IMG/VR virus record: IMGVR_UViG_3300029564_000003
Coordinates: 69,289-133,288 of that record
DNA length: 64,000 bases
Reading direction: 5' to 3' (one strand)
From: a virus
The translations under genes and the position numbers were made by a program. Under the pieces are notes generated by a model, which saw only the letters and a program-made list of their open reading frames with translations, had not been told where the DNA came from and searched no databases. The first letter of the stretch is position 1, and each line of letters opens with the position of its first letter. Shown here in pieces: positions 11,293 to 26,040 of the stretch.

Positions 11293-12290
11293 GAGCTTTT
11301 TATCTCATGCTCTGGGGCTTTCGCCCATTTTCATCGACTTGTCATTTCAAGCCCAGCTTGGCGTACATTTTCGTTCGTTATTGAACGTCGGACACTCTTG
11401 CCAAGATTATATTTATTCACTTGGTACGCTCTACGGTGTCAACCAGCCTTTCGCAATCTGGTTGATTACCTCGGTATTGACATATAATTTTATTACTTAG
11501 CTTTTACCGATTTTATCCGATTTTATCAGGGCAATTTTATTTTATAAATTTCTATTTATATGCAAATCTTTATTGTTATCAACATAATCGAACTTTTCTT
11601 TTTTACGAGACAAACATATACAGTCGTCTGTGTAGATATATTTCTTAAATTTTTCTATATTATCTACACCATAAATATATATGCTACAAGCATTGCTTCT
11701 TTTATCCTTTCTTGGTTCGCCCACTTTAATTCCGTTATTTATCAATATGTCTCTAACAGAAATCAAAAAGTTTTCGTTGCCACAAAAAGAACAAGAATAA
11801 CTGTGCATTCTATATTTTTTGCCTCGTTCACTATGATAATAGTCGCCTTCTGTGTATGAAACGCATCCATCACCATCAAAATATCCACGTATAAAATCTC
11901 TGATATATTGTTCTGGAACAATATCATACGTTGGGAACTCCAATGTTAAACTTTTGCATGGCGTGCATCCGAGATTAATTAAATCTCTACACATCTTCGT
12001 GTAATTAATAACAATTCGATTTGCATTGTATTTACCTGCAATTTTCCTATCCTGTATAGGAACATTGCTTTCAAGCGAGTCTCTGAACTTGATTAGGTGG
12101 TCTATATCTTGACTTTGAAGCGTTATCTCTAACGACATAGACCTCAGTTCTTCGCCTTTATAGTATCTGGTAATACATCCATCTGCATATAAAAACCCAA
12201 GCCAATATGCTTTATCAGATGAATCAATTTTCTTGAAATAATCCTTATTGTAAGTATACTTACTCATTTGTTATTCCAATCGTTCGCGGC
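11293..12290 (-). mobile_element. intron (probably group I) interrupting terL, carrying a LAGLIDADG homing endonuclease gene
   Basis: ~1 kb AT-rich insertion between the two terL coding segments; exon 1 ends ...AARGQGKL then stop, and exon 2 resumes at about 11292; contains a free-standing HEG with its own start codon. Confidence 0.6.
11542..12267 (-). CDS. LAGLIDADG homing endonuclease (double-motif)
   Basis: Two LAGLIDADG motifs: LGFLYADGC and IRGYFDGDGCV; AT-rich codon usage unlike the flanking genes. Confidence 0.8.
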   Translation of the reverse strand: MSKYTYNKDYFKKIDSSDKAYWLGFLYADGCITRYYKGEELRSMSLEITLQSQDIDHLIKFRDSLESNVPIQDRKIAGKYNANRIVINYTKMCRDLINLGCTPCKSLTLEFPTYDIVPEQYIRDFIRGYFDGDGCVSYTEGDYYHSERGKKYRMHSYSCSFCGNENFLISVRDILINNGIKVGEPRKDKRSNACSIYIYGVDNIEKFKKYIYTDDCICLSRKKEKFDYVDNNKDLHINRNL

Positions 12291-12527: not shown

Positions 12528-13588
12528 TCCATCCCGTCGTCTTCAAAGTGGTATTCTGGTATATCTTCTTCAAGATTGGTCTTGCCGAACACCGCCTCAA
12601 ACATAGATTCATCATCATCATCTTCAACGTATTCTGGTTTAGACGCGGTATATTTAGACATGAACTTATCATACAGGTTTGAGAATGCGTTCTTGATATT
12701 TACCATCTTCGCAAGATGTCCTCTAAAGAACACATCTATGTAAAGTCCGATTTTATCGACATCTCTTAAATCTTCCTCTGGCTCTGGGATTGGTCGTGTT
12801 CGCTCCCACTTATCTATAAGCGTACCCATTGTCTGATTTTCCGCCGTAGTGTCGCCGACATTCTGCTTAGGCTGCAATTTTGCAGCATCCATGAGTTTTA
12901 GATATTGCTCATTCAATTGCTTGATGTCGCCGATGTTGCCAGATGTCTCGGCCTTCAACTGCTGCAATTGAATCTTGCACAGCTGCTTGAACGTCTCCTC
13001 TTGCGCCATGGTGTTGCACTCATGACGGGCAGTCCATTCCATATATTTATCATATAAAAACACATAATCGTCTCGCGCAAAACCATTGCCGAACATCTTA
13101 ACACCCTCGCGAATGCGCACATCTTTCTCGACATCATCGTCATCATATATAGACATTGTCTTGCCAGCATCGACAGATTCCTTGAACTTATCTTTCAATG
13201 TATCGTCATATGAGCGCTGTATATATGTCTTAAGTCTAGTGCGTTGCATATAATACGACATAACCGAATGGCTACCATCGTTCTCCCAGCTCTTTATTGC
13301 TGATTGAACAAGCTTGTCACTATAATACACATCGAACATCATGCACATTCTCTCAATTGCCTTATGCTCTGGATTCGTCTTGTCTTCACTGACATACTTG
13401 TCATAATAATAATCATACATGTCATCTAGGCAATCTTGACATATTGGCAGTCTTGCATGGTTCTTGAAGAACTCGCTTCTCGTACTGTAATATTTCTTCG
13501 AATCTATCTTCTCACCGCATCGTATGCAGGTTAGTTTTGCGGGGGAGTCAAGGGTTTTGCTGCGGCTCGCATTATTAGCTATAGCCAT
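12524..13588 (-). CDS. hypothetical protein with N-terminal zinc ribbon; possible terminase small subunit
   Basis: 354-aa ORF immediately upstream of terL; CIRCGEKI...CQDC zinc-ribbon; acidic C-terminus; the call is positional only. Confidence 0.3.
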
Positions 13589-13697: not shown

Positions 13698-14930
13698 TTA
13701 GAACTTGACATCATAAACGCAGTCAAGCCCGTCATTCCCGAACACGGCGATTACCTGCTCGGGCCGATTGCGCAGTCGCTTGTCCATGCAGAAGTTATCA
13801 GACCCCGAGAGACATCCGCTGGTAATCACCTTGGTATCGTACTCGGTGTGCATGGCATTGGTGTGGCGATGCGCCATAAAGATTGTTGAAGGGCGATAGT
13901 CGAGCATCATGGTAATCTTCGACACCACGCTCTTCGGGTCGTCCTTATCGCCATGTACGGCGACGACATTCGACCCACGAACGCTGAACACAGCCATCGA
14001 CTCCTCGATGTCGTTCACATGGAACACGATGTCGTTCTCGTTCTGAAGCTTCGCGCCAATATAAGGAATAATAAGATGGTCAAAGTTCTCCGCCTTCGCA
14101 AGTTCATTCTTGTTAGCGACAACGCGGGAGTGGTTGCCCGGAGTCACATATACATGCACCGTATCGACCATATCGCAAAGCTCGTAGAGGAAATCTGCGA
14201 TTAGGTCTGCCGCAGTGAGAAACTGCTCGATTACGTTCTGGTTGGACTCGATACGCAGTGGCGTATGAATGAGTCCGCTGATAATCTCAGAAATTATCAC
14301 ATGGGCGTTCTCAACGTTATGGCGCTCGGACACCTCGCAAATCTTGTCAAGGTACTTCCCAAGCCTATCCTTTAGAACATCTTCATCGAACTTATTCCAA
14401 GAGTTATCGATGACAATACCAGTATGCAGGTCGGTCAGAGTGACTACGATATCGGTATCCCCATGAAGATAGACCTTGTCCTTGTGTCCGATTCTGCGCT
14501 CGACATTATCGACAACGGCTCGCTTGACCTGCTCTACGAAACTTTCCTTGCGGGCTTGCTCGCGGAGCAGTCGCTTAAGCTCGTTGCGCTCATCACGCAA
14601 CTTGACCTTTTCCTTCTCAAGCTCGTGGCGTTGTGCCACAATCTCGGAGGACTCGTCGATTTCTCCAAATACACCAGCGTCGTGAAAACGCTTTGCCTGT
14701 TGATACGGTTTGCGGTAGGCACTTGCCGTAAATGGCATATCGCCCATATCCAACTCCTTGTTAAGGATGTCGGCGACCTCATTCCAGCTCATGTCGAGAA
14801 GACCAGAATCCTTTGCCTGACACAAACGCCAGATGAATTGCTCGTCATTCTCAAACTCTTCCTTTTTCAAATTCATAACTTCACACACCCGTCTTAGCTT
14901 GAAACGGCTCAATGGGTCAGATGCCCGCAC
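13698..14930 (-). CDS. calcineurin-like metallophosphoesterase with N-terminal coiled-coil
   Basis: Ordered motifs DxH (TDLHTG), GD, GNHS, and GHxH-like (AHRHTNAMH) of the metallophosphatase fold. Confidence 0.55.
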   Translation of the reverse strand: MRASDPLSRFKLRRVCEVMNLKKEEFENDEQFIWRLCQAKDSGLLDMSWNEVADILNKELDMGDMPFTASAYRKPYQQAKRFHDAGVFGEIDESSEIVAQRHELEKEKVKLRDERNELKRLLREQARKESFVEQVKRAVVDNVERRIGHKDKVYLHGDTDIVVTLTDLHTGIVIDNSWNKFDEDVLKDRLGKYLDKICEVSERHNVENAHVIISEIISGLIHTPLRIESNQNVIEQFLTAADLIADFLYELCDMVDTVHVYVTPGNHSRVVANKNELAKAENFDHLIIPYIGAKLQNENDIVFHVNDIEESMAVFSVRGSNVVAVHGDKDDPKSVVSKITMMLDYRPSTIFMAHRHTNAMHTEYDTKVITSGCLSGSDNFCMDKRLRNRPEQVIAVFGNDGLDCVYDVKF

Positions 14931-15300
14931 AAAGCGAGCCTCTTTCGAGTCTTTTGTTTGTATAGCACCGAATGTTTTGGACTAAACTAACCCGACCCAT
15001 CGACTTACTAACCACCACAATGGATGGCAAAACAACCCTGATGGGTTGACATATGCGGATATTGCCCCATCCGCGAATATGCTGTAACATTCATCTATCC
15101 ATACACGGGGTGGTGCCGCAACAGTTCCAAGATATAGAACAATCGCGGCACCTAGCTAAGAAAGGTGTAGGAATATGAATGATTCCCGACGGGATAAGAC
15201 ACCCGTCTATGACGCGAAATGAATCGCGCCTGTAAATGCCGCAACCCGCTTACGCGGGTCACGAAAGTATCATAATCCGCAAATGCGGGTTACTTCATGT

Positions 15301-15827: not shown

Positions 15828-18788
15828 CTACACAGCGTTTTCCTCTCGTTTACGCTGTCGATATCTCTGCATCTTCAAACGCTTTAACTCTCTCTTATGT
15901 TCCTTCTGACACTCCTCGCAACGCTCGGTTGCAGAGTCGTACACGCTAACCTCGAACCACTCACCGCAATCAACGCACTGAACAGCCTTGGTTTGCGGAT
16001 TGAGCTTGTCAGACAGATTCTCGTAGATTACATCACCGTAGCACAACCACAGGGCTGTTTTGTTAGCAGACTTCTTGATTCCGTATAAGAACTTCACCAA
16101 GATGTCGACGACCTCTTGCTCGGTATATCCGAACTTAGACAATGCATCTCGAATCTTATCGGCGATGCGCTGATTCTTCATCTGGGTGCGCATATAACGC
16201 TCGCTCTTATCGGCCTTGCTAGATGACATCGCAGCATCGACGTTGAGATAATAAGCCTTATCGAACTTGCAATACTCGACGATGAGCGGGTCGGTTTCCT
16301 CCTCGATGATTCTTCCGTTGGATGTGAACGCGACATCGAACTCGATATTGGGGTCGTGCATCAACATCGCACAGTCTATTTTGCCGATTCCGAGTTTCCG
16401 CGTGTTGATTCTCGGATTCGGGATGACGGCCTCAAGCTTGTTGACGAAGCTGAGATTCGCATCTACGATTTGAGAATCTGTCTTGTCCTTCGCGTACTTG
16501 AAGAAGTGGGGGAGTGGTTGCCCTGTGAAGGCCGTCAGCTTCTTGTTCATATCCTTCGGACGCTCTGGTTTATAGAGGGTTTTTGCGTAATCGATAACGT
16601 AGTTGTTTTCCATACAAAGAATCTTGATTAGCTCGACAGCCTCCTTTTGCTCCTCAAGTGTTCCGTCGACAAACACGTCGCTGTTCCAAATCTTAGAGAT
16701 GTTGTTGCTGTAGATGCCGATGTTGCCACCGACGAACGCCGCATTCAATCCAGCGTATATCGCCTTGTTGTCGAGATGAACAGGGGATGCCTTCTTCATA
16801 TCGTAGTAAAGCGGGACGATATCGAACTTCTCGATGTTGCGCTTTGCCACGTCGATGATGGTCTTATCGGCCACCATGAGCAATTTGTCACCGTCGCAGT
16901 CAAATTGAAGCACCCTAGAAATAAGGTCTTTGCAGCTCGTATAAACAGCATCGGTACAATACCAGTTCCTCAGCTTATCACGACGCTCTTCATCGACACC
17001 GCGAGCGGCGACGTTCTTCCTTATCGCATGTTCCAAAAATAAGTGAGGAGACCTCAGACAATCAAGCTCATCGTTCTTCCTGAACAGCCAACAGAACACC
17101 TCGCCGTCATCGAGCAGCCCATTTGGATTGTCTGTACCCATGAACCAGTGTTCGCAAGCGGCATAGAAATCTGGGACTACGAATGTATACTTACCATGGA
17201 TATCGAGCTTTCCAGCCTTGCACCGCTTGATGATACTGTCCTTGATTCTCCTGATATGAGACTTCGTGTACTCGTCATTGATAAGCTCGGGGTATAACTC
17301 GATGCACTTCTGAAATGACGTCTTGCTCTTATTGTATGGCGTGATATCGAACATCGACTTCACGTTTCGAATAGATGAGCACATGTTCTCAAGCTTGTAC
17401 ACGGACTGTCGTGCTATCGAGGCAATCTCATCATCGGCGATATCGGTGAGCGACTGCAACATCTGGTAGTTGATGGTCGCGTCCTTTATCCGCTCTTCCT
17501 CCTCGTTTGTGAATCCTGCGGTGCATCCGTTGTCGTGGTACTTCTCCTTGTAATCATCCCAAGAGTCATAGAAACCCGAGAGCTTGAACTGACTCTTCGT
17601 GAATATCACCTGAATATCCTCATCGATTACGTCATGTTCCTCGCCGTAGATGTCCTTGATGATTGGCGAGCACCCATTTTCACGTATGAACTCGTCGAAA
17701 GGGAACGCGCACAGCAATCCCTTAATCCAAGGTATGCGCACCATCTTGTTGTTCTGCAAGATGCCGAACGCATTTGGCAGCATCATACCAGCTCCATCGG
17801 TATGCTCAATCTCACGATGGCCGCACTCTCGCGTCACGCTGTAATCGACATCGCTGACGAAGTCATAAGTTCCATATACCTCGGTCGCGAAGTCATCGAT
17901 GACGATGCACTTGTCGATATCAAACTCTTCCCACACATCGGTGGCAGAATTCGATAAGGCGTTGTAGGCGAGATACTTGTTCGGATTTATTCCACCCTTT
18001 GCATTGATATCATCGAGTGTCAAACCGCACATGATTGACTTCTCGCATCTGCGCCACACGGACTCCTTGACGAACACGCACTTCTTCGTTCGAATCTGAC
18101 CAGCGGAAGAGGTGAAGTAGATATACCTCTCACCCTTGTAGGTGAATCCGTTGAAAATCAAATCCTTGAGGACGTCGAAGTAGAACACCCGCACAATCAT
18201 GAAGTCATCGGTGAATTCGTCAATCTCCGCACCGATAGTCCTCGTGAAATACGAATCGAACACGGCGATTACGTCATCCTCGGACACAGTCGACTCGTCA
18301 AGCTTCCTGATGTGATGATGCCGGTTCGATGAATCGTTCGCCTCGACCTTGTTCGACAGGAGGGATAATAGCTTCTGCTTGACCTCGTTCGCCTTCTTAG
18401 TCTTCATATCCGCCAAGCTCTTGTAGTATGCGTAATCCACGGCGATGTCATTTACCGTGTCTGCATCGTCCCCGTGTATCGAGAAATCATACTCACCAGA
18501 CATCATGAGCTTGATATCCGACACGTCCACTCCGAACTCCGCCAGCTGAGACTCAAGCTGTCTGGTGCCAGTTATCGTTCTCTTGACACCGTTGGCGTTC
18601 ACTATGAACCCGCCGTTGACCAGCCTGTTGCGCTCAGCCCTCAGCTTGTGGTTGAGCATGTGGAGTCGGCGCTCGCGCTTGCTGTAGAAATTCGAGGTAT
18701 CTACATTGAGTATCTTCACCTGCTTATCTAGCGCCAATAAGAACACATCCTTCCATTTCCGAAACCTTTCTTTCCCCGTTTGAAACAA
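15828..18788 (-). CDS. large protein with DxDGD metal-binding motif and C-terminal zinc ribbon; candidate non-canonical single-subunit (two-barrel/YonO-like) RNA polymerase
   Basis: 986 aa; motif QFDCDGDKLLMV resembles the universal DxDGD catalytic loop of multisubunit-type RNAPs; C-terminal CVDCGEW...CEECQ zinc ribbon; first gene of the late-strand unit next to the divergent control region; the family assignment is inference. Confidence 0.35.
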   Translation of the reverse strand: MFQTGKERFRKWKDVFLLALDKQVKILNVDTSNFYSKRERRLHMLNHKLRAERNRLVNGGFIVNANGVKRTITGTRQLESQLAEFGVDVSDIKLMMSGEYDFSIHGDDADTVNDIAVDYAYYKSLADMKTKKANEVKQKLLSLLSNKVEANDSSNRHHHIRKLDESTVSEDDVIAVFDSYFTRTIGAEIDEFTDDFMIVRVFYFDVLKDLIFNGFTYKGERYIYFTSSAGQIRTKKCVFVKESVWRRCEKSIMCGLTLDDINAKGGINPNKYLAYNALSNSATDVWEEFDIDKCIVIDDFATEVYGTYDFVSDVDYSVTRECGHREIEHTDGAGMMLPNAFGILQNNKMVRIPWIKGLLCAFPFDEFIRENGCSPIIKDIYGEEHDVIDEDIQVIFTKSQFKLSGFYDSWDDYKEKYHDNGCTAGFTNEEEERIKDATINYQMLQSLTDIADDEIASIARQSVYKLENMCSSIRNVKSMFDITPYNKSKTSFQKCIELYPELINDEYTKSHIRRIKDSIIKRCKAGKLDIHGKYTFVVPDFYAACEHWFMGTDNPNGLLDDGEVFCWLFRKNDELDCLRSPHLFLEHAIRKNVAARGVDEERRDKLRNWYCTDAVYTSCKDLISRVLQFDCDGDKLLMVADKTIIDVAKRNIEKFDIVPLYYDMKKASPVHLDNKAIYAGLNAAFVGGNIGIYSNNISKIWNSDVFVDGTLEEQKEAVELIKILCMENNYVIDYAKTLYKPERPKDMNKKLTAFTGQPLPHFFKYAKDKTDSQIVDANLSFVNKLEAVIPNPRINTRKLGIGKIDCAMLMHDPNIEFDVAFTSNGRIIEEETDPLIVEYCKFDKAYYLNVDAAMSSSKADKSERYMRTQMKNQRIADKIRDALSKFGYTEQEVVDILVKFLYGIKKSANKTALWLCYGDVIYENLSDKLNPQTKAVQCVDCGEWFEVSVYDSATERCEECQKEHKRELKRLKMQRYRQRKREENAV

Positions 18789-19202
18789 TATTTGTTTTTA
18801 TATGTTTTCACTTTGTTTATCAACAAAAAACATTGTTTATAAACAAAAGCATCATAAAAACAAATACATTTTACAATTATAGCATATATATTCGCCAGTT
18901 AAAACCATCATCTATCACATCCATGGAAATAACATCGACATTCAACATGGCTAATAATACACATGCTTAATCGCGCACGTTGATATCCGTATACCCAGTT
19001 ATCAAAGTTTTATACGGTCGTATCTCTTCTTCACGAAATCTACATATAGCAACAACTAAAAGCAGTCACTTTGAAACTCGCGCCAAACTGATGGCGTAGT
19101 CTCGCCTTCGGCTCGCTACGCAGATGGGAGATAATCATACGGCCATTGGTTATAGCATACATCTATTGATTATACGATTGCAACCGTGATATCATCTTCG
19201 TC

Positions 19203-19270
19203 AAAACTTGTCACTTTGATTTCCTCGTTATAATATATATATAACGGTTTTTTCAAAGTGACAAGTTTTG
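19203..19270. repeat. 68-bp perfect palindrome, copy 1 (18-bp arms CAAAACTTGTCACTTTGA, centre CGTTATAATATATATATAACGG)
   Basis: Read directly from the sequence; identical second copy 191 bp downstream. Confidence 0.9.
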
Positions 19271-19393
19271 GAGTTGTATAATTTTGTGTTCATTCCATGA
19301 AGATGTTATATGAGTGTATAAAGTTTTAAGTTGTGGGTATAGAACCAACGACGACCAGAGATGTTTCATCGACGGTCGTTTTTAAGGAAATTT

Positions 19394-19461
19394 AAAACTT
19401 GTCACTTTGATTTCCTCGTTATAATATATATATAACGGTTTTTTCAAAGTGACAAGTTTTG
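19394..19461. repeat. 68-bp perfect palindrome, copy 2
   Basis: Identical to 19203..19270. Confidence 0.9.
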
Positions 19462-19490
19462 CTTGTATAACGATAAGGAGCCTTTGTCTT

Positions 19491-19646
19491 ATGCTGAATA
19501 ACATAAAGAATTATATGCGTTACGCCCTAAGAGATGAAATATCTCATTTTTACAGAGAATCAGTTCCTTACGTAGAATCATCTCTCATCCCCGAGGCGGA
19601 GCGCAGCGGAGACCTCGGCATCAGTTTAGCGCTAATTTCAAAGTGA
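19491..19646 (+). CDS. hypothetical small protein (51 aa)
   Basis: AAGGAG RBS 10 nt upstream of the ATG; lies between the palindromes and the iterons. Confidence 0.25.
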   Translation: MLNNIKNYMRYALRDEISHFYRESVPYVESSLIPEAERSGDLGISLALISK

Positions 19647-19770
19647 CAAGTTTGGCAACTTGAAGTGACAAATTCTTATGAATTTGAAGTGACAAACTTT
19701 TACAAGTTTGAAGTGACAAGTTTAACAACTTAAACAATAAGTTTGGCAACTTAAACAACCAAACACGTAA
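19636..19770. repeat. iteron array: 4-5 direct repeats of GAAGTGACAA(G/A)TT at ~24-bp spacing, plus GTTTGGCAACTT x2
   Basis: Seen in sequence; shares the GTGACAA core with the palindrome arms and with a single site at ~19063. Confidence 0.85.
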
Positions 19771-19788
19771 CGGCTAAGGAATGGTGGT

Positions 19789-20736
19789 ATGGCGAACGAT
19801 ATAGATGTTAGCGGGGTGATTGTGGGAGTCACCTATAAGTACAGAGAACTGTGCAATATCCTTATGGACGAGCCTTGTACTGGTAAACAGAAGATATTAC
19901 AACTAAAGCGTTGGTCTGGCTACATGAGTTGGGAGAACCCGACTACACAGAAGTACAAGATAACAGAAGTGTACGATGAGCCTACGGTTTCATCTAGGGG
20001 TGGTAAGAGGAGAAACAGCGGAAGGAAGAAGAAATTATACGATGAGTTCCTTTGGTTGTTGAACGCATTCATGCACAGGGAGTTCAACAGAAACACCTCT
20101 GGTGGACACGATGGCAAATTGTGTTCTTGCAGATTCACCGGAAACGAGATATCGAAATACTTCGGTCTGTACAACGACAACTTCCATAACGCGGTATCAG
20201 AATACTCGAAGAATCACGATGATGGGGTAGATGAGTTCTCGAAGGCGTGGTATGAGGTGTCGAAGTTGATAGCGGACATGCGCAGGAGATGGATATACAA
20301 CAGGATTGAGGACATCGACGGAGTCAAGTTCGGTTACGGAGTGATAGCGTATAAGGACAAGGATAGGTCTGAATTCGATTATCTTGACGATAAACTCGGC
20401 GATTGGAACTCGTACATGGCGAGATACATGGAGAGGCACAAGTTGAAGAACGAGGGAATGGTCGCAGATAGGGGAATGTATCTGGACATGATTAAGAACA
20501 TATCCCTCAACTTCGATGATTACGTCAGCGTCGAGAGAGTCAGGAGATTCGATTACGACATCGACATCTTGAAGGAGTATGAATTCGATGAGTATGAGGA
20601 TTACAAGAGGAAGTTCAACGATGCCGTGGTTGATGGCTTGAAGAGACACTTCGACAAGAAGGTGAGTTTAGGTGGATATGAGAATGCATACGATGGCTTC
20701 GTCAAAGTCGTCGTCGATGAATACGTGATGTTGTAA
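19789..20736 (+). CDS. hypothetical early protein (first gene of the plus-strand arm)
   Basis: 315 aa; AAGGAATGGTGG RBS; positioned immediately after the iteron array, consistent with a regulator or initiator; no recognisable motif. Confidence 0.5.
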   Translation: MANDIDVSGVIVGVTYKYRELCNILMDEPCTGKQKILQLKRWSGYMSWENPTTQKYKITEVYDEPTVSSRGGKRRNSGRKKKLYDEFLWLLNAFMHREFNRNTSGGHDGKLCSCRFTGNEISKYFGLYNDNFHNAVSEYSKNHDDGVDEFSKAWYEVSKLIADMRRRWIYNRIEDIDGVKFGYGVIAYKDKDRSEFDYLDDKLGDWNSYMARYMERHKLKNEGMVADRGMYLDMIKNISLNFDDYVSVERVRRFDYDIDILKEYEFDEYEDYKRKFNDAVVDGLKRHFDKKVSLGGYENAYDGFVKVVVDEYVML

Positions 20737-20805: not shown

Positions 20806-20837
20806 GAGGGCGTCTCTTCGGAGGCGTCCTTTTTTTC
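20806..20837 (+). terminator. rho-independent terminator
   Basis: GGGCGTCTC-UUCG-GAGGCGTCC hairpin (two G-U pairs) followed by TTTTTTT. Confidence 0.6.
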
Positions 20838-21462
20838 GACGTTTTTATAAGCGCCTTTTTTTATTTGCATCTTTAAAAGACAAACAAACTTAAATACAGG
20901 GTTTATAAGCACGTCGTCTATGAAACACCCCTATGGAACGTCGATTTCAGACGGTGTGATTGTGTGACAAAACCGCTGGTAGATAGGCGTTTTTATTACT
21001 TGGTATGGGTGCGGTAATTCGTGTTTCAAGTATGAAGTTTTTATGCAGGGTATGTGTAGGAGTCTTGTTTCCGCTGGTAGACGGCTGATTACAGGGGTAG
21101 GCGAAGGTCTATTTTTGGCTGATTTTCAGTCGATTTTCAAGGCTGTTTTTGAGGTTCTCTCTAGGGCGTTTAGAGGTTCGCAAACGACAAGGGTGTTTTG
21201 GGTTCGGGTGTGATTTTGGGTTGCTGTTTGATGTGTTGCAAACGACAGGGGTGAGGGTGTGGATTTGGTGTTTTGGGTTCGGGATTTTGTGGCGTGTGTG
21301 TGGGGTGTATACGGGTTTGGTTTCAGGTTGTTTTTTGGGTCGGGGTGTGTGGGTGAAGCCCGTGGGGGGGCTGGGGCGATTCCCTAGTCGTTTACTAGGT
21401 TTAAACATGCCCCGTCCGGCACTTCGCGCCGTGCTTGTTCAAAAGTCACCGTGAGCTTTTGG

Positions 21463-21502
21463 GGATGAAAAAACGTGAGGTACCGAACATGTTTTTTCCT
21501 AC
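21463..21502. terminator. bidirectional-looking hairpin AAAAAACGTG...CATGTTTTTT
   Basis: 10-bp stem with A-run 5' and T-run 3'. Confidence 0.35.
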
Positions 21503-22495
21503 TACTTGCATAATAAAACAACCCCCTCTGTATAGTAACGCGCCGCGTTATTATATGAAACCGATTGTTAGTATATATAGTTAGAAGTTTGTCTAACAAT
21601 AGTAACGCAACGCGATACTATGCAACCCAAACCCAAACCCAAACCTTAAACCTATACTTGAACGTTAAACATAACGCCCCAAACACAACGCCTACAATCT
21701 GCCAAACCCAACTAACATATACCCCTCTGAGGGCCTCAGATGCCCCAAAAACGCCCGTTCAGTTTTCCACCTACACTTACCCCCGCCAACTGGTTATCGC
21801 CCCGTATACACGTTTCCGCAGGTAGAACCCTATATTTAGGTACCCGAACTATCGTCACTGGTATGCTGGTACGTACCAGTTGCAACACGATAGCGTACAC
21901 GTGTACGTTAAACGACACTTCGACCCGTTCTGTCGTCGATCTTATCGTGTGCTTATTTTATGTTTTCAACGTTCGACCCCTTGCATATACCTACGCTATC
22001 CGCTATATACGCGTCGCGTATGCAATATGCACGTCTAACGCGTATCCTATGCAGTCGATCGACCGCGTTTACCTGCTATTATACCGTTTACGCGCTATAT
22101 CGCCCTATTCTATGCATATCAACGCGTATACGACACCATTCTATGCAAGTACCTAAACTATGCCGTTTACCTGCGGTTTCACTAAACCATCATATATAGC
22201 ACCACTGTTTACCTGCTGTTTTGTTCAATTAAAATAGTTATTGCAATACATACCGCACCATGCGATATTGGTTTTGCCGCAAGGGGGCACGCCCCGAACG
22301 GCCGCCCGCTACGGGATGCGACCCGCGTAGCGCGTACTTTGAGAACCGAATATCGAGTTTATGAAGACTTTATGAAGACGCTAAAACGGTGCTAACATAG
22401 GGCTTGCCCCACGGGGCGGGAACCTTGATAAGAGCATACGTGGTAGGGCGCGGGGACGGGGACTGAACTGCGCCGCTACCGTGAGCGGCACTTAT

Positions 22496-22522
22496 GTTTC
22501 ACGTGAAACAGTTCACAAACAG
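22496..22522 (+). promoter_or_regulatory. operator-like element: perfect 14-bp palindrome GTTTCACGTGAAAC + AGTTCACAAACAG
   Basis: Seen in sequence; near-identical copy at 22927..22953. Confidence 0.6.
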
Positions 22523-22603
22523 GCGTGAGTACCGTTCACGGTGGGAAGACCGCCATATTCATAGGCCGTAGGGGTGAACCCTACACACACGAAAGGGGTT
22601 ATT

Positions 22604-22873
22604 ATGCCTACCATCAAGTACCACGACGCGTTCGAGCTCACGTCTCACGTGAACGACCTATGCGTGGCGCACGACGTTGCGAGTATGCATAGCGCTATGT
22701 TGTTCGGCGTGAGACTGGGCGGCATGAAAGCGGGAGACGTGTTGAACGTCTACGGTGGTTCTACGCTCACGTCCACGTTCTGTGAGTGCCCTATATTGGG
22801 CGCTGTTAAGTTCCAACTGCGAGTTATCAAGCTGTCAAACGGCAAGGGCTACGCTGTCGAGCGCGTGGCATAG
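22604..22873 (+). CDS. hypothetical protein
   Basis: AAAGGGG RBS then ATG (MPTIKYHDAFEL...). Confidence 0.5.
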   Translation: MPTIKYHDAFELTSHVNDLCVAHDVASMHSAMLFGVRLGGMKAGDVLNVYGGSTLTSTFCECPILGAVKFQLRVIKLSNGKGYAVERVA

Positions 22874-22926: not shown

Positions 22927-22953
22927 GTTTCACGTGAAACCATTCACAAACAG
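22927..22953 (+). promoter_or_regulatory. operator-like element GTTTCACGTGAAAC + CATTCACAAACAG (copy 2)
   Basis: Directly upstream of the RBS of the 22966 gene. Confidence 0.6.
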
Positions 22954-25245: not shown

Positions 25246-26040
25246 CGGAGAACACCGCCACGGAGAATTAGTTGCCGATACGCTACCGCTTGCCGCTACG
25301 GAAAATCTCTAGCCCTACGCTGTCGCGTGGGGCTTCTGTGCTGTCGCGTTGGCGCGTGGAACTTTTCGCCATCGCGGAAAAATCGGTATGTTAGTACCAT
25401 CAATTTATAAAGTTAACCAACGGTAACAATGTAGTAGTATCAATATGTTAACCAACTATAACTATTAAGTTAACCATAGTTAACAAATGCACCATGCACC
25501 ACGCGACCCATCGTGCCACGTATCCACGCGCCACACGGAAAATCGGCCCAACGGAAAATTAGACGCGCTACAATCGCGCATCAGACGAGCAACACCACGC
25601 GCCACACAACGCCCTGGAACGCCACGGAATAACGCAAGCCTACCCACACACCCGAGACGCACGCAACGGCGGAAATATAGGCATCACAAGCCGTCACGGA
25701 AGATTGTACGTGCTGGCTCTAGCCGCTCACAGTCCATCGGCCACACGGAAAATCATACTGTGATTCAATTGTGTGGAATGTGTGAACCTATTGCAACCAC
25801 AAGGACAATCATATATATTGTAATCAATCGGTAGTCGAGCCGCTGGAAAATCAGAACATATCCAACGGAGGGGCATGGAAGAACCGTTACACTTTCTCTA
25901 CAGTTGTGCCAATATCTGCGGGTATCTCTACGCTTGTGTACCTACCAACGCTCACACGGAAAATATGTAGACCATGTGAATCTCTATATATATCTTGCGC
26001 CGCCACGGAAAATCAGATAGAGTATAACCACTAGATACAA
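25240..26040 (+). repeat. non-coding array dense in ACGGAAAAT(C)-type motifs (~14 copies / 800 bp)
   Basis: No convincing ORF; motif copies at ~25299, 25375, 25537, 25554, 25669, 25697, 25747, 25844, 25957, 26007 plus variants. Confidence 0.7.
25412..25484. repeat. four GTTAAC(C) palindromic repeats within ~75 bp
   Basis: AGTTAACCAACGGTAACAATG ... TGTTAACCAAC ... AGTTAACCATAGTTAACAAATG. Confidence 0.8.

What the first reader, a model, noticed from the sequence alone, without database searches (positions are those of the whole stretch)
20840..22570. 1.7-kb gene-free block with GT-rich and CA-rich inverted arms, tandem duplication, (CCCAAA)n repeats, G-quadruplex-prone tracts and two iteron families
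Compositional arms:
- Plus strand 21150-21400 is extremely G/T-rich. It carries a ~58-bp tandem duplication (GCAAACGACARGGGTG...TTTTGGGTTCGGG, units ~21180-21236 and 21239-21295) and stacked G-runs (GGGG TGA GGG TGT GG ... GGG TC GGGG TGTGT GGG ... GGGGGGG CT GGGG at 21340-21382) capable of G4 formation.
- 21600-21780 is the mirror image (CA-rich), including (CCCAAA)x3-4 at ~21625-21645. The two arms are therefore imperfect reverse complements around a central 180-bp segment with its own hairpins.

Iterons:
- Downstream (21780-22260), CTATGCA occurs about 5 times and GTTTACCTGC 3 times (22077, 22166, 22207).
- TTTATGAAGAC is repeated twice at ~22358.

This is not explained by any gene and is far more structured than ordinary intergenic DNA. 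Possibilities are a replication origin or terminus, a packaging (pac/cos) region, a transcribed structured ncRNA, or a recombination hotspot.
Basis: seen in the sequence. Interest (0 to 1): 0.7.

Follow-up and report, generated by a model that had tools for sequence, protein, structure and literature searches.

The report
Phage genome-end terminal repeat region
This gene-free block is most likely where the linear DNA of an uncultured SPbeta-like gut phage begins and ends: a short terminal repeat flanked by mirrored G-rich arms, used to cut and package the genome and perhaps to start replication. That is a known kind of element, here with some conserved features not described before.

Summary
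The block holds the most extreme strand composition in the 64-kb window: a G/T-rich arm, a hairpin-rich centre of about 260 bp, a mirrored C/A-rich arm, then iterons. The same layout recurs in every relative I recovered.

The window is part of a 133-kb human-gut contig of an SPbeta-like phage, with a YonO RNA polymerase and a YonF-type terminase. [quoted passage not shown]

In Perkons and SPbeta the left DTR border lies just after a GTGTGG motif, preceded by a G-rich, C-poor arm and followed about 60 nt later by a C-run. The window has this arrangement at 21346-21413.

I therefore read 21361 to about 21621 as the collapsed DTR at the concatemer junction, with subterminal arms and the early-gene control region. 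This rests on short motifs and position; a profile HMM did not detect Perkons or SPbeta.

A replication origin may overlap. Relatives carry DnaA-box-like arrays and a winged-helix protein gene sits next door, but the window itself has no DnaA boxes.

No ncRNA family or conserved fold was found. The kind is known; this is a new member. No read data were available.

The parts
19789..20736 (+). p315 gene, immediately left of the block. It encodes a multi-winged-helix DNA-binding protein conserved next to the block in all close relatives.
20806..20835 (+). Intrinsic terminator of the p315 gene; true left edge of the block.
   Evidence: 11-bp stem with 6 GC pairs followed by a T-run; identical in L005.
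20836..21150 (+). Left flank with short conserved sites: GNCGTTTTTAT x3 (20838, 20986, 21034), CCGCTGGTAGA x2 (20973, 21071) and TTTATGCAGGGTATGTGTAG.
   Evidence: Repeat families D4 and D6. A C(T/A)GGTA(G/A)A site lies on the + strand left of Box A in window, L005, L003, L004, L008, L010 and L012. The stretch is 96% identical to L005, with copy-number change of the GNCGTTTTTAT unit.
21151..21345 (+). G/T-rich, C-poor subterminal arm. On the proposed linear genome this is the right end, just inside the right DTR copy. It holds the imperfect 58/75-nt duplication, TTTGGG x4 and stacked G-runs.
   Evidence: G+T reaches 90 per 100 nt, the window maximum. It is unstructured as ssDNA (z +0.1). It is 97.7% identical to L005, against 90.2% for the adjacent coding gene. 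A G-rich, C-poor arm precedes the mapped DTR border in Perkons, SPbeta and Thrax1 and is present in all metagenomic relatives.
21346..21363 (+). Box A (TGTGTGGGTGAAGCCCGT). Proposed recognition site at the left DTR border; predicted cut between about 21360 and 21363. Contains a degenerate DnaA-box-like core.
   Evidence: Consensus GGTGTGTGGATGAASNNCRT in 31 distinct loci. Unique in the window (nhmmer E 6e-11). Perkons: TGTGTGGATAGATGA|DTR. SPbeta: GTGTGGAAATGGAAGT|250-bp block. Not coding: the positions that would be third codon positions are invariant across distant relatives (alignment).
21398..21413 (+). Box B (GGTTTAAACATGCCCC), at fixed spacing from Box A (59-65 nt from Box A start to the C-run).
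   Evidence: Spacing and motif are conserved in 12 junctions including Perkons and SPbeta and in about 30 metagenomic cores. The spacer is variable, often a hairpin, with no consensus fold.
21361..21621 (.). Central segment, the proposed short direct terminal repeat of about 261 bp, present as one copy in the assembly. It contains a hairpin at 21383-21398, a hairpin at 21467-21498, conserved GGTACCGAAC at 21479-21488, a C-run at 21522-21526, a palindrome at 21532-21554, an AT-rich TTGTTAG/CTAACAA inverted repeat at 21565-21602 and TAGTAACGC units.
   Evidence: The length matches Perkons (264), SPbeta (about 250) and Thrax (285). ssDNA fold z -3.6. Identity to L005 falls to 75%, with whole-iteron indels, from about 21371. 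Contig L006 ends at the equivalent of 21621-21623. The right border is uncertain, anywhere from 21565 to 21625.
21622..21790 (+). C/A-rich, G-poor subterminal arm, just inside the left DTR copy on the proposed linear genome. It holds (CCCAAA)x3.7 at 21624-21645.
   Evidence: G+T falls to 20 per 100 nt, the window minimum. TRF confirms the repeat. It mirrors the TTTGGG sites of the left arm. The arm is present in all close relatives with different short C-rich repeats, for example (CCCTCA)3 in L004. T7 has a CA-rich CCTAAAG array in the same place.
21791..22261 (+). Iteron field: CCGCAGGTAGA (21816), CTATGCA x3 (22047, 22110, 22141), GTTTACCTGC x3 (22067, 22165, 22207) and several small palindromes. 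Candidate origin or protein-binding array.
   Evidence: Counts against the whole window. This stretch is largely specific to the window compared with L005 (67% identity, 166 gap columns). In the corresponding region of relatives there are DnaA-box-like arrays: L008 has 10-11 boxes at 11-bp phasing, L020 has 8-9, and L003, L010 and L012 have 3-5.
22262..22603 (+). GC-rich, strongly self-complementary segment leading into the first early gene (ATG at 22604). It holds TTTATGAAGAC x2 (22358-22379) and the palindrome GTTTCACGTGAAAC (22496-22509). Probably the early promoter, operator and 5' leader.
   Evidence: RNA fold z -4.8. 80% identical to L005, with long identical stretches. The palindrome is conserved in L003, L004, L005, L010 and L012 and recurs at 22927-22940 before the second gene. 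No reliable consensus structure across distant relatives.

Best explanation
The block is the genome-end (concatemer-junction) region of a linear, SPbeta-like phage genome that the assembler closed into a circle.

**Proposed anatomy**
- The central ~260 bp (about 21361-21621) is a short direct terminal repeat.
- In replicating concatemers one copy sits between the right end of one genome (p315 gene, G/T-rich arm, Box A) and the left end of the next (C/A-rich arm, iterons, early genes).

**Proposed mechanism (inferred by analogy with T7-type packaging; not shown here)**
- The YonF-type terminase recognises the bipartite Box A/Box B site.
- It nicks the + strand just after Box A and the - strand at the other border.
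- The two 3' ends, both on the G-rich strands, are extended through the repeat, so each daughter end gets a full copy.
- On this reading the arms mirror each other because the same machinery acts in opposite orientation at the two borders.

**Consequences**
- The left end (DTR, CA arm, early operators, small early genes) would be packaged last and injected first.
- The adjacent iteron and box arrays and the winged-helix protein p315 may add a replication origin.

**Status of each step**
- Shown: the anatomy, its conservation, and its correspondence to mapped termini of relatives.
- Inferred: that ends are cut here in this phage, the nicking scheme, and the role of the arms.
For: **Lineage**
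- The YonO homolog is 40% identical to SPbeta yonO. YonG, YonJ, HU and portal homologs are present. TerL is 42% identical to SPbeta YonF.

**Relatives with this terminase type have short DTRs**
- Perkons: 264 bp by PhageTerm.
- Tsamsa and Thrax: 284-285 bp.
- phiCD211: 378 bp, as an exact prefix/suffix of the record.
- SPbeta, phi3T and Goe11-14 have a sharp-edged ~250-bp high-coverage block between yonP and yonR, next to yonO.

**Border anatomy matches**
- Perkons reads ...TGTGTGGATAGATGA|GCTTAGGG... with TATACCCCC about 55 nt further on.
- SPbeta reads GTGTGGAAATGGAAGT|GCTATGGG... with TATACCCCC.
- The window reads TGTGTGGGTGAAGCC... with CATGCCCC at the same spacing.
- I predicted the border from SPbeta and then found it in Perkons. 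The exact 9-mer in a 40-nt target has a chance of about 1e-4 (my estimate from base composition).

**G-rich arm**
- A G-rich, C-poor arm of 160-400 nt directly precedes the border in Perkons, SPbeta, Thrax1, the window and all metagenomic relatives. A C-rich stretch follows the repeat.

**Central segment**
- Its length of 261 bp lies within the known DTR range.
- Window/L005 identity breaks sharply about 10 nt after the predicted border.
- One independent contig (L006) stops exactly at the centre/CA-arm border.

**Other support**
- TGT(G/T)GA(A/T) boxes are oriented + on the left (25 vs 2) and - on the right (30 vs 7) over 14 junctions.
- T7 gives a precedent for a CA-rich short-repeat array just inside the left terminal repeat and for minor origins at both ends.
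Against: - No read data were available, so no terminus was observed for this phage.
- A profile HMM of 31 cores finds the window (E 6e-11) but not Perkons or SPbeta. An earlier 11-sequence profile gave only E 0.31 in SPbeta. The link rests on short motifs plus position and spacing.
- By strict synteny the SPbeta yonP-yonR spacer corresponds to the other spacer (18788-19789). That spacer has its own repeats, and four contigs break there.
- The SPbeta authors interpret their data as pac plus headful packaging, not DTR.
- phiCD211 has a DTR but no Box A and only a short G-rich stretch in place of an arm.
- The core also occurs with p315 homologs in small integrase-bearing chromosomal islands. That would fit a replication module equally well.
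- The right border is not defined by any conserved motif.
Confidence: 0.58

Rival explanations
1. The block is primarily the lytic replication origin. p315 would be an iteron-binding initiator acting on the adjacent sites (Box A, iterons), with host DnaA helping in relatives. The strand-asymmetric arms would be unwinding or helicase-loading zones. The genome ends would lie elsewhere.
For: - DnaA-box-like arrays next to the core in relatives: L008 has 10-11 boxes at 11-bp phasing, L020 has 8-9, and L025 has 3 perfect TGTGGATAA in tandem plus one 1-mismatch copy.
- Box A itself contains TCATCCACA in most relatives.
- Iterons with unit-copy indels between window and L005.
- AT-rich palindromic stretch at 21565-21602.
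- p315 and the core travel together into small integrative islands, as Rep-ori modules do.
- The cumulative GC-skew minimum is near 19-21 kb.
- The phage has its own helicase and primase but no recognised initiator.
Against: - The window has no DnaA-box enrichment: 4 hits with <=2 mismatches in 1.73 kb, against 4.3 per kb in the window overall.
- In islands L138 and L135 the core fills a ~120-nt spacer with no AT-rich unwinding element or iterons.
- The local skew has the opposite sign to that expected around an origin.
- The GC-skew minimum is confounded by the switch of gene orientation.
- This reading does not explain the match to mapped DTR borders.
- The two readings are not exclusive. 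I put the chance that an origin lies somewhere within the block at about 0.4.
Confidence: 0.2
2. The block is a pac site for headful packaging, as proposed for SPbeta. Terminase would make one sequence-specific cut here and later cuts would be sequence-independent. There would be no fixed terminal repeat, and the arms would be small-terminase binding arrays.
For: - Kohm et al. interpret the SPbeta, phi3T and Goe11 coverage as pac plus headful packaging, with packaging running leftward from the right edge of the 250-bp block.
- Phased short repeats are typical of small-terminase binding sites.
Against: - The SPbeta block has two sharp edges and the same size in phages of different genome length, which the authors themselves found hard to explain.
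- Perkons, Thrax/Tsamsa and phiCD211, which have the same terminase family, have defined short DTRs.
Confidence: 0.12
3. The arms and/or the core encode structured non-coding RNAs: GU-rich sRNAs transcribed toward the centre, or C-rich leaders transcribed outward that act as Rho-loading sites.
For: - The RNA fold of 22262-22603 is far better than shuffles (z -4.8).
- Outward transcripts of both arms would be C-rich and G-poor, like rut sites (composition).
- SPbeta has an unannotated ncRNA near its YonO promoter, though at a different locus.
Against: - No Rfam match at E<=1 apart from a chance plant miRNA hit.
- RNAalifold finds no consensus structure in 31 cores.
- The GT arm has no structure.
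- No convincing promoters face the arms.
- Consensus folding of the GC-rich part across relatives is negligible (-6.3 kcal/mol).
Confidence: 0.06
4. The block is ordinary intergenic DNA whose odd composition is drift or low-complexity expansion without function.
For: - Short microsatellite-like repeats, and copy-number variation between close relatives.
Against: - The layout is conserved across relatives whose flanking protein is only 40-58% identical.
- The GT arm is more conserved than the adjacent gene.
- Box A/B is conserved in about 30 distinct loci.
Confidence: 0.02

Closest known systems
Short direct terminal repeat region of Psychrobacillus phage Perkons (MT325768; PMC13245101)
   Same: - YonO- and HU-encoding SPbeta-like phage.
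- 264-bp DTR in the large non-coding region between the leftward yonO block and the rightward early genes.
- TGTGTGGAT motif ending at the left DTR border, a C-run about 60 nt inside, and a 400-nt G-rich, C-poor arm before it.
   Different: - Very AT-rich genome.
- No p315 homolog.
- The C-rich arm is weak and lies 300-400 nt beyond the DTR.
- Sequence similarity is limited to the short motifs and is not detected by a profile HMM.
- Its termini are experimentally supported; those proposed here are not.
SPbeta / phi3T / Goe11-14 'pac-site' fragment between yonP and yonR (bioRxiv 10.1101/2021.11.22.469490, Suppl. 11; Fink & Zahler 1982 as cited there)
   Same: - Same phage lineage and terminase family (42% TerL identity).
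- Sharp ~250-bp block that starts right after GTGTGGAAATGGAAGT, with TATACCCCC inside.
- G-rich arm to its left.
- Packaging proceeds toward yonO and the late genes.
   Different: - Interpreted by its authors as pac plus headful packaging.
- The arm is purine-rich rather than G/T-rich.
- The spacer is 0.95 kb and directly abuts yonP, with no p315 gene in between.
Phage T7 concatemer junction (160-bp terminal repeat with flanking short-repeat arrays SRL/SRR and the end-proximal promoters phiOL/phiOR)
   Same: - Short exact terminal repeat.
- A CA-rich, G-poor array of short repeats (CCTAAAG) immediately inside the left repeat.
- Replication-associated elements near both ends.
- The model of staggered nicks plus fill-in to duplicate the repeat.
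   Different: - Unrelated phage and terminase.
- T7's right-hand array has the same orientation as the left one, so there is no mirrored G-rich arm.
- No Box A/B.
Tyrovirus (Tsamsa, Thrax1-5) and phiCD211 short DTRs
   Same: - Same broad TerL family (25-32% identity).
- DTRs of 284-378 bp in a non-coding region.
- Thrax1 has G>C before the repeat and C>G after it.
   Different: - No recognisable Box A/B.
- phiCD211 has only a short G-rich stretch before the repeat, not an arm.
DnaA-box / iteron replication origins (oriC, P1 oriR, RepE and Pi plasmids)
   Same: - Arrays of 9-mers matching TTATCCACA at 0-1 mismatch, with 11-bp phasing, in relatives.
- Iterons.
- An adjacent winged-helix protein gene.
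   Different: - The window has no DnaA boxes.
- No defined AT-rich unwinding element or DnaA-trio was found.
- The boxes are arranged as inverted sets around the repeat and may be sites for a phage protein.
Eukaryotic telomeric repeats (resemblance only)
   Same: - (CCCAAA)n / (TTTGGG)n-type repeats.
- On the proposed linear genome the G-rich strand runs 5' to 3' toward each end.
   Different: - Only 3-4 tandem units, about 260 bp from the proposed physical end.
- No telomerase or protelomerase context.
- No evidence of overhangs.

Membership tests
Short-DTR (T7-type) genome terminus / concatemer junction | An identical direct repeat at both physical ends of virion DNA, seen as read-start pile-ups and a 2x coverage step. 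| not testable with these tools
   No reads were available. One contig (L006) ends at the equivalent of 21621-21623, which is suggestive only.
Short-DTR (T7-type) genome terminus / concatemer junction | The large terminase belongs to a clade whose characterised members generate short DTRs. | tested here: met
   TerL is 42% identical to SPbeta YonF, 25-32% to Thrax and phiCD211, and 21% to Perkons. DTRs are documented for Perkons, Thrax/Tsamsa and phiCD211.
Short-DTR (T7-type) genome terminus / concatemer junction | Border sequence shared with relatives whose termini are mapped. | tested here: inconclusive
   Box A (GTGTGG...) at the border and a C-run at 59-65 nt occur in Perkons, SPbeta and the window. 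The profile HMM does not reach significance for Perkons or SPbeta.
Short-DTR (T7-type) genome terminus / concatemer junction | Lies in the non-coding region between the late (leftward) and early (rightward) gene blocks. | tested here: met
   Gene map of the window and relatives compared with SPbeta and Perkons. Caveat: the p315 gene splits the region in two.
Headful pac site | One fixed end with decaying coverage and circular permutation; small-terminase binding repeats. | not testable with these tools
   Needs reads. No small terminase was identified in the window.
DnaA-dependent origin | A cluster of DnaA boxes (TTATCCACA, <=1 mismatch). | tested here: not met
   Window: none with <=1 mismatch in the block, and 4 with <=2 mismatches in 1.73 kb against 4.3 per kb in the window overall. 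Met in relatives L008, L020, L025, L021, L003, L010 and L012.
DnaA-dependent origin | An AT-rich unwinding element adjacent to the boxes. | tested here: inconclusive
   A short AT-rich palindromic stretch lies at 21565-21602. No DnaA-trio pattern is visible.
Iteron/Rep-type origin | Direct iterons next to the gene of a winged-helix initiator that binds them. | tested here: inconclusive
Described RNA family (Rfam 15) | A covariance-model match at or near the gathering score. | tested here: not met
   The only hit is a chance one: MIR9563, 25.5 bits against a gathering score of 90, E 0.094.
Structured RNA or ssDNA element (core) | A consensus secondary structure with covariation across homologs. 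| tested here: not met
   RNAalifold on 31 cores predicts no pairs. Hairpins occur, but at different places.
Canonical G-quadruplex motif | Four G3+ runs with loops of 1-7 nt. | tested here: not met
   None in the window. Two motifs appear with loops <=12, both in the GT arm.
Protelomerase target (telRL) of hairpin-ended linear phages | A long perfect palindrome with an even dyad, next to a protelomerase gene. | tested here: not met
   The palindrome at 21532-21554 is short, imperfect and has an odd centre. No protelomerase appeared among the proteins I scanned. I did not screen every ORF.

The most novel reading that the evidence does not exclude
Box A/Box B, together with the p315 winged-helix protein, is a portable end-recognition (or replication-plus-packaging) module. 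It is shared between SPbeta-like phages, a second group of large gut and rumen phages, and small integrase-bearing chromosomal islands, some of which carry defence genes. The islands would be satellites that use it to be replicated or packaged by such phages. The mirrored, telomere-like G-strand arms would be a functional device, for example giving strand polarity to the two nicking events at the DTR borders or providing structure-free, recombination-prone 3' tails after end resection.
Probability: 0.2. Interest if true: 0.65.

Novelty: new member of a known kind. Interest (0 to 1): 0.4.

Why it matters
SPbeta is a model temperate phage, yet its packaging signal, genome ends and replication origin are still undefined. 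This analysis ties a striking non-coding block in an uncultured gut relative to the mapped ends of SPbeta, Perkons and Thrax. It proposes a common anatomy: a G-rich arm, Box A at the cut, a C-run inside the repeat, and a C-rich arm beyond it.

If confirmed it would:
- reinterpret the SPbeta '250-bp pac fragment' as a short terminal repeat;
- give a sequence signature for finding the true ends of large Firmicute phages in metagenomes, which matters for completeness calls and for engineering;
- point to p315 and the box arrays as candidates for end recognition or replication initiation.

It is not a new kind of system.

Tried and rejected
**Searches that found nothing**
- Nucleotide search of the block against 50,697 phage records: no match.
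- Back-translated searches with p315 and the first early protein in IMG/VR: nothing.
- p315 by tblastn in cultured phages: nothing.
- Rfam: nothing real.

**Ideas dropped after testing**
- YonO promoter: in SPbeta it lies upstream of yonK, at a different locus.
- A hairpin with a conserved loop around Box A: apparent covariation in 4 sequences vanished with 31.
- Coding potential of the CA-rich strand (99-aa ORF at 21109-21408): rejected, because Box A is invariant at would-be third codon positions, the would-be start varies between ATG and ACG, and there are frame-breaking indels against L005.
- A Chi-like role for GC(T/A)GGTA(G/A)A sites: orientation is consistent on the left arm but mixed on the right.
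- DnaA boxes in the window itself: absent.
- Conserved right-border motif: only a weak TATAT..(C/A)AAG pattern at +205 to +225, not convincing.
- Consensus structure of the GC-rich leader: inconclusive.

**Uninformative or unsupportive checks**
- BUCT083 record ends: the record is deposited as circular, so I did not compare its ends with the SPbeta block.
- phiCD211: has a DTR but no Box A and only a short G-rich stretch before the repeat, so the anatomy is not universal in the terminase family.
- Profile HMM link to Perkons and SPbeta: not significant.
Full report
**What is there**

The block runs from the terminator of a 315-aa gene (20806-20835) to the ATG of the first small rightward gene (22604). 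It contains, in order:
- a left flank with short conserved sites;
- a G/T-rich, C-poor arm (21151-21345);
- a hairpin-rich central segment (about 21361-21621);
- a C/A-rich, G-poor arm (21622-21790) starting with (CCCAAA)x3.7;
- an iteron field (21791-22261);
- a GC-rich, strongly self-complementary segment (22262-22603).

In 100-nt windows across all 64 kb, the G+T maximum (90) and minimum (20) both fall here, at 21255 and 21623. No other place reaches 75.

TTTGGG sits on the + strand five times left of 21460 and on the - strand five times right of 21620.

GTTTACCTGC (3 of the window's 3 + strand copies), CTATGCA (4 of 5) and the tandem TTTATGAAGAC are real.

The '58-bp duplication' is imperfect, and G4 motifs exist only with relaxed loops.

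ORFs in the block are by-products of skewed composition. They are not conserved and are broken by non-triplet indels in the closest relative.

**What the surrounding genome is**

The window is part of a 133,308-bp human-gut metagenome contig.

Left of 18.8 kb the genes run leftward:
- a YonO-type single-subunit RNA polymerase (15828-18788, 40% identical to SPbeta yonO);
- HU, YonJ, YonG, TerL and portal homologs.

Right of 22.6 kb small genes run rightward. Further on lie tRNAs, a DnaB-like helicase, a primase, a Sak4-like annealing protein and an exonuclease.

This is an SPbeta-like phage. It has no close cultured relative at the nucleotide level.

**Relatives**

Through homologs of the 315-aa protein (p315) I recovered loci L003, L004, L005, L008 and L010-L012. 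L020 came from the Box A pattern search described below. In these loci p315 is 39-91% identical to the window's.

All have a 1.7-2.2 kb gene-free block after p315, with the same order of G-rich arm, centre and C-rich arm. The short repeats differ: (CCCTCA)3 in L004, and TAAACGACAAT-type units in L003.

The best-conserved piece is a bipartite core:
- Box A, GGTGTGTGGATGAASNNCRT;
- a variable spacer of about 35-40 nt, often a hairpin;
- Box B, GGTTTAAAnnnCCCC.

The distance from Box A to the C-run is 59-65 nt.

Pattern searches of viral, genome and metagenome collections found about 30 distinct cores.

RNAalifold predicts no shared structure, and the box is invariant at would-be third codon positions. 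It therefore looks like a two-part DNA recognition site, not an RNA or a coding sequence. It occurs once in the window (nhmmer E 6e-11).

**The link to genome ends**

For SPbeta, restriction mapping and PhageTerm place the genome opening point between yonP and yonR, next to yonO.

Supplement 11 of Kohm et al. gives a sharp-edged block of about 250 bp, of the same size in six phages. It begins GCTATGGGTAC... and ends ...GGGAATCGAAG.

In the SPbeta sequence that block starts directly after GGGTGTGGAAATGGAAGT, contains TAAATATACCCCC about 50 nt in, and is preceded by a 300-nt G-rich, C-poor arm.

Using that as a prediction, I looked at Psychrobacillus phage Perkons. It encodes YonO and HU, and its 264-bp short DTR was defined with PhageTerm.
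- Its right end reads ...GCTGTGTGGATAGATGA|GCTTAGGG....
- TTTTTATACCCCC follows about 50 nt into the repeat.
- A 400-nt arm with G-C of +15 to +25 per 100 nt precedes it.

Thrax1 has a 285-bp DTR and also has G>C before and C>G after the repeat. phiCD211 has a 378-bp DTR but lacks the box and has only a short G-rich stretch before the repeat.

The window's TerL is 42% identical to SPbeta YonF and belongs to the same family as all of these.

Transferring the Perkons and SPbeta border to the window puts the left border at 21361-21363.

Three observations bear on the right border:
- The C/A arm begins at 21622, which would give a repeat of about 261 bp, within the known range.
- Identity between the window and its closest relative L005 is 97.7% through the GT arm, higher than the 90.2% of the adjacent gene. 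It drops to 75%, with iteron-unit indels, from about 21371.
- One independent contig (L006) runs from p315 through the arm and centre and stops at the equivalent of 21621-21623.

**How it most likely works**

I propose that the assembler closed a linear, terminally repetitive genome. The block is then the concatemer junction:

right genome end (p315, G-rich arm, Box A) | DTR | left genome end (C-rich arm, iterons, early operators, early genes).

By analogy with T7-type packaging, terminase would nick the + strand after Box A and the - strand at the other border. The 3' ends would be extended through the repeat to give each end a copy. This is established for T7 and is an inference here.

Both primer strands would then be the G-rich strands. 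The two arms would mirror each other because the two events are related by a two-fold axis.

The strand orientation of TGT(G/T)GA(A/T) boxes over 14 junctions fits this: 25 on + against 2 on - to the left, and 30 on - against 7 on + to the right. Composition contributes to that bias.

In SPbeta, packaging proceeds toward yonO. The end bearing the early genes would therefore be packaged last and injected first.

The GC-rich segment with the conserved GTTTCACGTGAAAC palindrome, repeated before the second gene, is probably the early promoter, operator and leader. Its RNA fold has z -4.8, but cross-species structure is inconclusive.

**The origin question**

Relatives carry arrays that look like DnaA boxes:
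- L008: 10-11 copies of TTATCAACA or TTTTCCACA at 11-bp phasing.
- L020: 8-9 copies of TTTTCAACA.
- L025: 3 perfect tandem TGTGGATAA plus one 1-mismatch copy.
- L021: 2 perfect copies.

Box A itself contains TCATCCACA in most relatives.

A clear p315 homolog (E 7e-29) sits 28 nt from a core in a small integrase-bearing chromosomal island, L135. L138 has a similar arrangement, although its 415-aa protein shows only weak N-terminal similarity to p315 (E 0.01). L015 has a p315 homolog with a resolvase, an integrase and a PycTM-domain gene.

A Rep-ori module would behave this way, so an origin inside the block is plausible; I put it at about 0.4.

The window itself has no DnaA boxes. In the islands the core fills a 120-nt spacer with no unwinding element. 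The boxes may instead be inverted copies of the Box A motif, bound by a phage protein. T7 also has minor origins at both ends, so the two functions can coexist.

**Weak points**

- No reads, so no terminus was observed.
- The profile HMM does not link the core to Perkons or SPbeta. The case rests on short motifs, spacing, arms and position.
- The yonO-p315 spacer (18788-19789) is the strict syntenic counterpart of the SPbeta spacer. It has its own palindromic repeats, at which four contigs break. I attribute that to assembly, but it is the main alternative location for the ends.
- The function of the arms is inferred only.

**Comparison and novelty**

Short DTR termini and T7-like junctions with flanking short-repeat arrays are known. 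T7 even has a CA-rich CCTAAAG array in the same place. Perkons, Tsamsa/Thrax and phiCD211 show that the same terminase family uses them.

This is a new member in an uncultured gut phage. Three things appear undescribed in the papers I read:
- the shared Box A/B border signature;
- the G-rich and C-rich mirrored arms;
- the association with p315 and with integrative islands.

Interest is moderate. The analysis gives a testable reinterpretation of the SPbeta 'pac fragment' and a signature for phage ends, not a new kind of system.

Noticed in passing
window 19205-19272, 19390-19457 and 19640-19720; L015 5870-5945: There are two copies of a 66-68-nt element in the yonO-p315 spacer. Each is an inverted repeat, AAACTTGTCACTTTGA ... 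(TA)n ... TCAAAGTGACAAGTTT. Four or five GAAGTGACAA(G/A)TT repeats follow. The same ACTTGTCAC / GTGACAAGTT inverted repeat precedes the distant p315 homolog in island L015, so it is probably the operator of this gene family.
   Followed up: partly
L002, L005, L006 and L211 starts, equivalent to window ~19426-19432 (or the first copy at ~19241): Four independent single-run assemblies all begin at the (TA)n centre of that palindromic element. This is most likely an assembly break at a palindrome or repeat. It is also the main alternative site for a special DNA end.
   Followed up: partly
L006 end, equivalent to window 21621-21623: Contig L006 runs p315, GT arm, Box A, centre and stops at ...GATACTATGCCA. 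That is exactly the border with the (CCCAAA)n arm, and no repeat of 31 nt or more explains it. It fits a right genome end, but it is a single observation.
   Followed up: partly
L135 683-2141; L138 5285-6626; L015 4634-10084: In L135, a p315 homolog (28% identical, E 7e-29) lies beside a Box A/B core in a small integrase-bearing chromosomal island, next to metG, ksgA and tatD. L138 has a core beside an integrase, a resolvase and a 415-aa protein with only weak N-terminal similarity to p315 (E 0.01). L015 carries a p315 homolog (P0013) with a resolvase, an integrase and a PycTM-domain gene, but only a degenerate Box A. These may be satellites or integrative elements sharing the phage's cis site.
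   Followed up: partly
window 22496-22509 and 22927-22940: The perfect palindrome GTTTCACGTGAAAC, followed by TTCACAAACAG, lies just upstream of the first two early genes. It is conserved in L003 (x2), L004, L005 (x2), L010 and L012. It is probably an operator of the early genes.
   Followed up: partly
L021 7690-7780; L025 (reverse strand) 13330-13370; L106, L115, L149: A second group of large phage contigs has the same core without YonO or p315 in the fetched stretch. Perfect tandem DnaA boxes (TGTGGATAA) lie in the G-rich arm, and the palindromic promoter-like ACAAACTATAATTTGT follows the core.
   Followed up: no
window 11542-12267 (-); L003, L004 and L020 yonO regions: A LAGLIDADG homing-endonuclease ORF lies between TerL and YonG. 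The YonO gene is split into two or three ORFs or frames in relatives, as in several SPbeta-group records that have GIY-YIG inserts.
   Followed up: no
window 21151-21365 vs 19789-20736 (compared with L005): The non-coding GT arm is 97.7% identical between window and L005, while the adjacent protein-coding gene is 90.2% identical at the nucleotide level. That suggests either strong constraint or recent exchange ending at Box A.
   Followed up: yes
window ~25547-25690: A second C/A-rich, G-poor patch (G+T <=28 per 100 nt) lies among the early genes. It overlaps a doubtful 115-aa ORF (25487-25834).
   Followed up: no
L007 4153-5835 (SPbeta yonK-yonN): SPbeta has a 1.7-kb stretch with no annotated gene between yonK and yonN, where the YonO promoter and an unannotated ncRNA were reported (PMC5467207). 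The equivalent spacer in the window (about 14930-15300) is much shorter.
   Followed up: no
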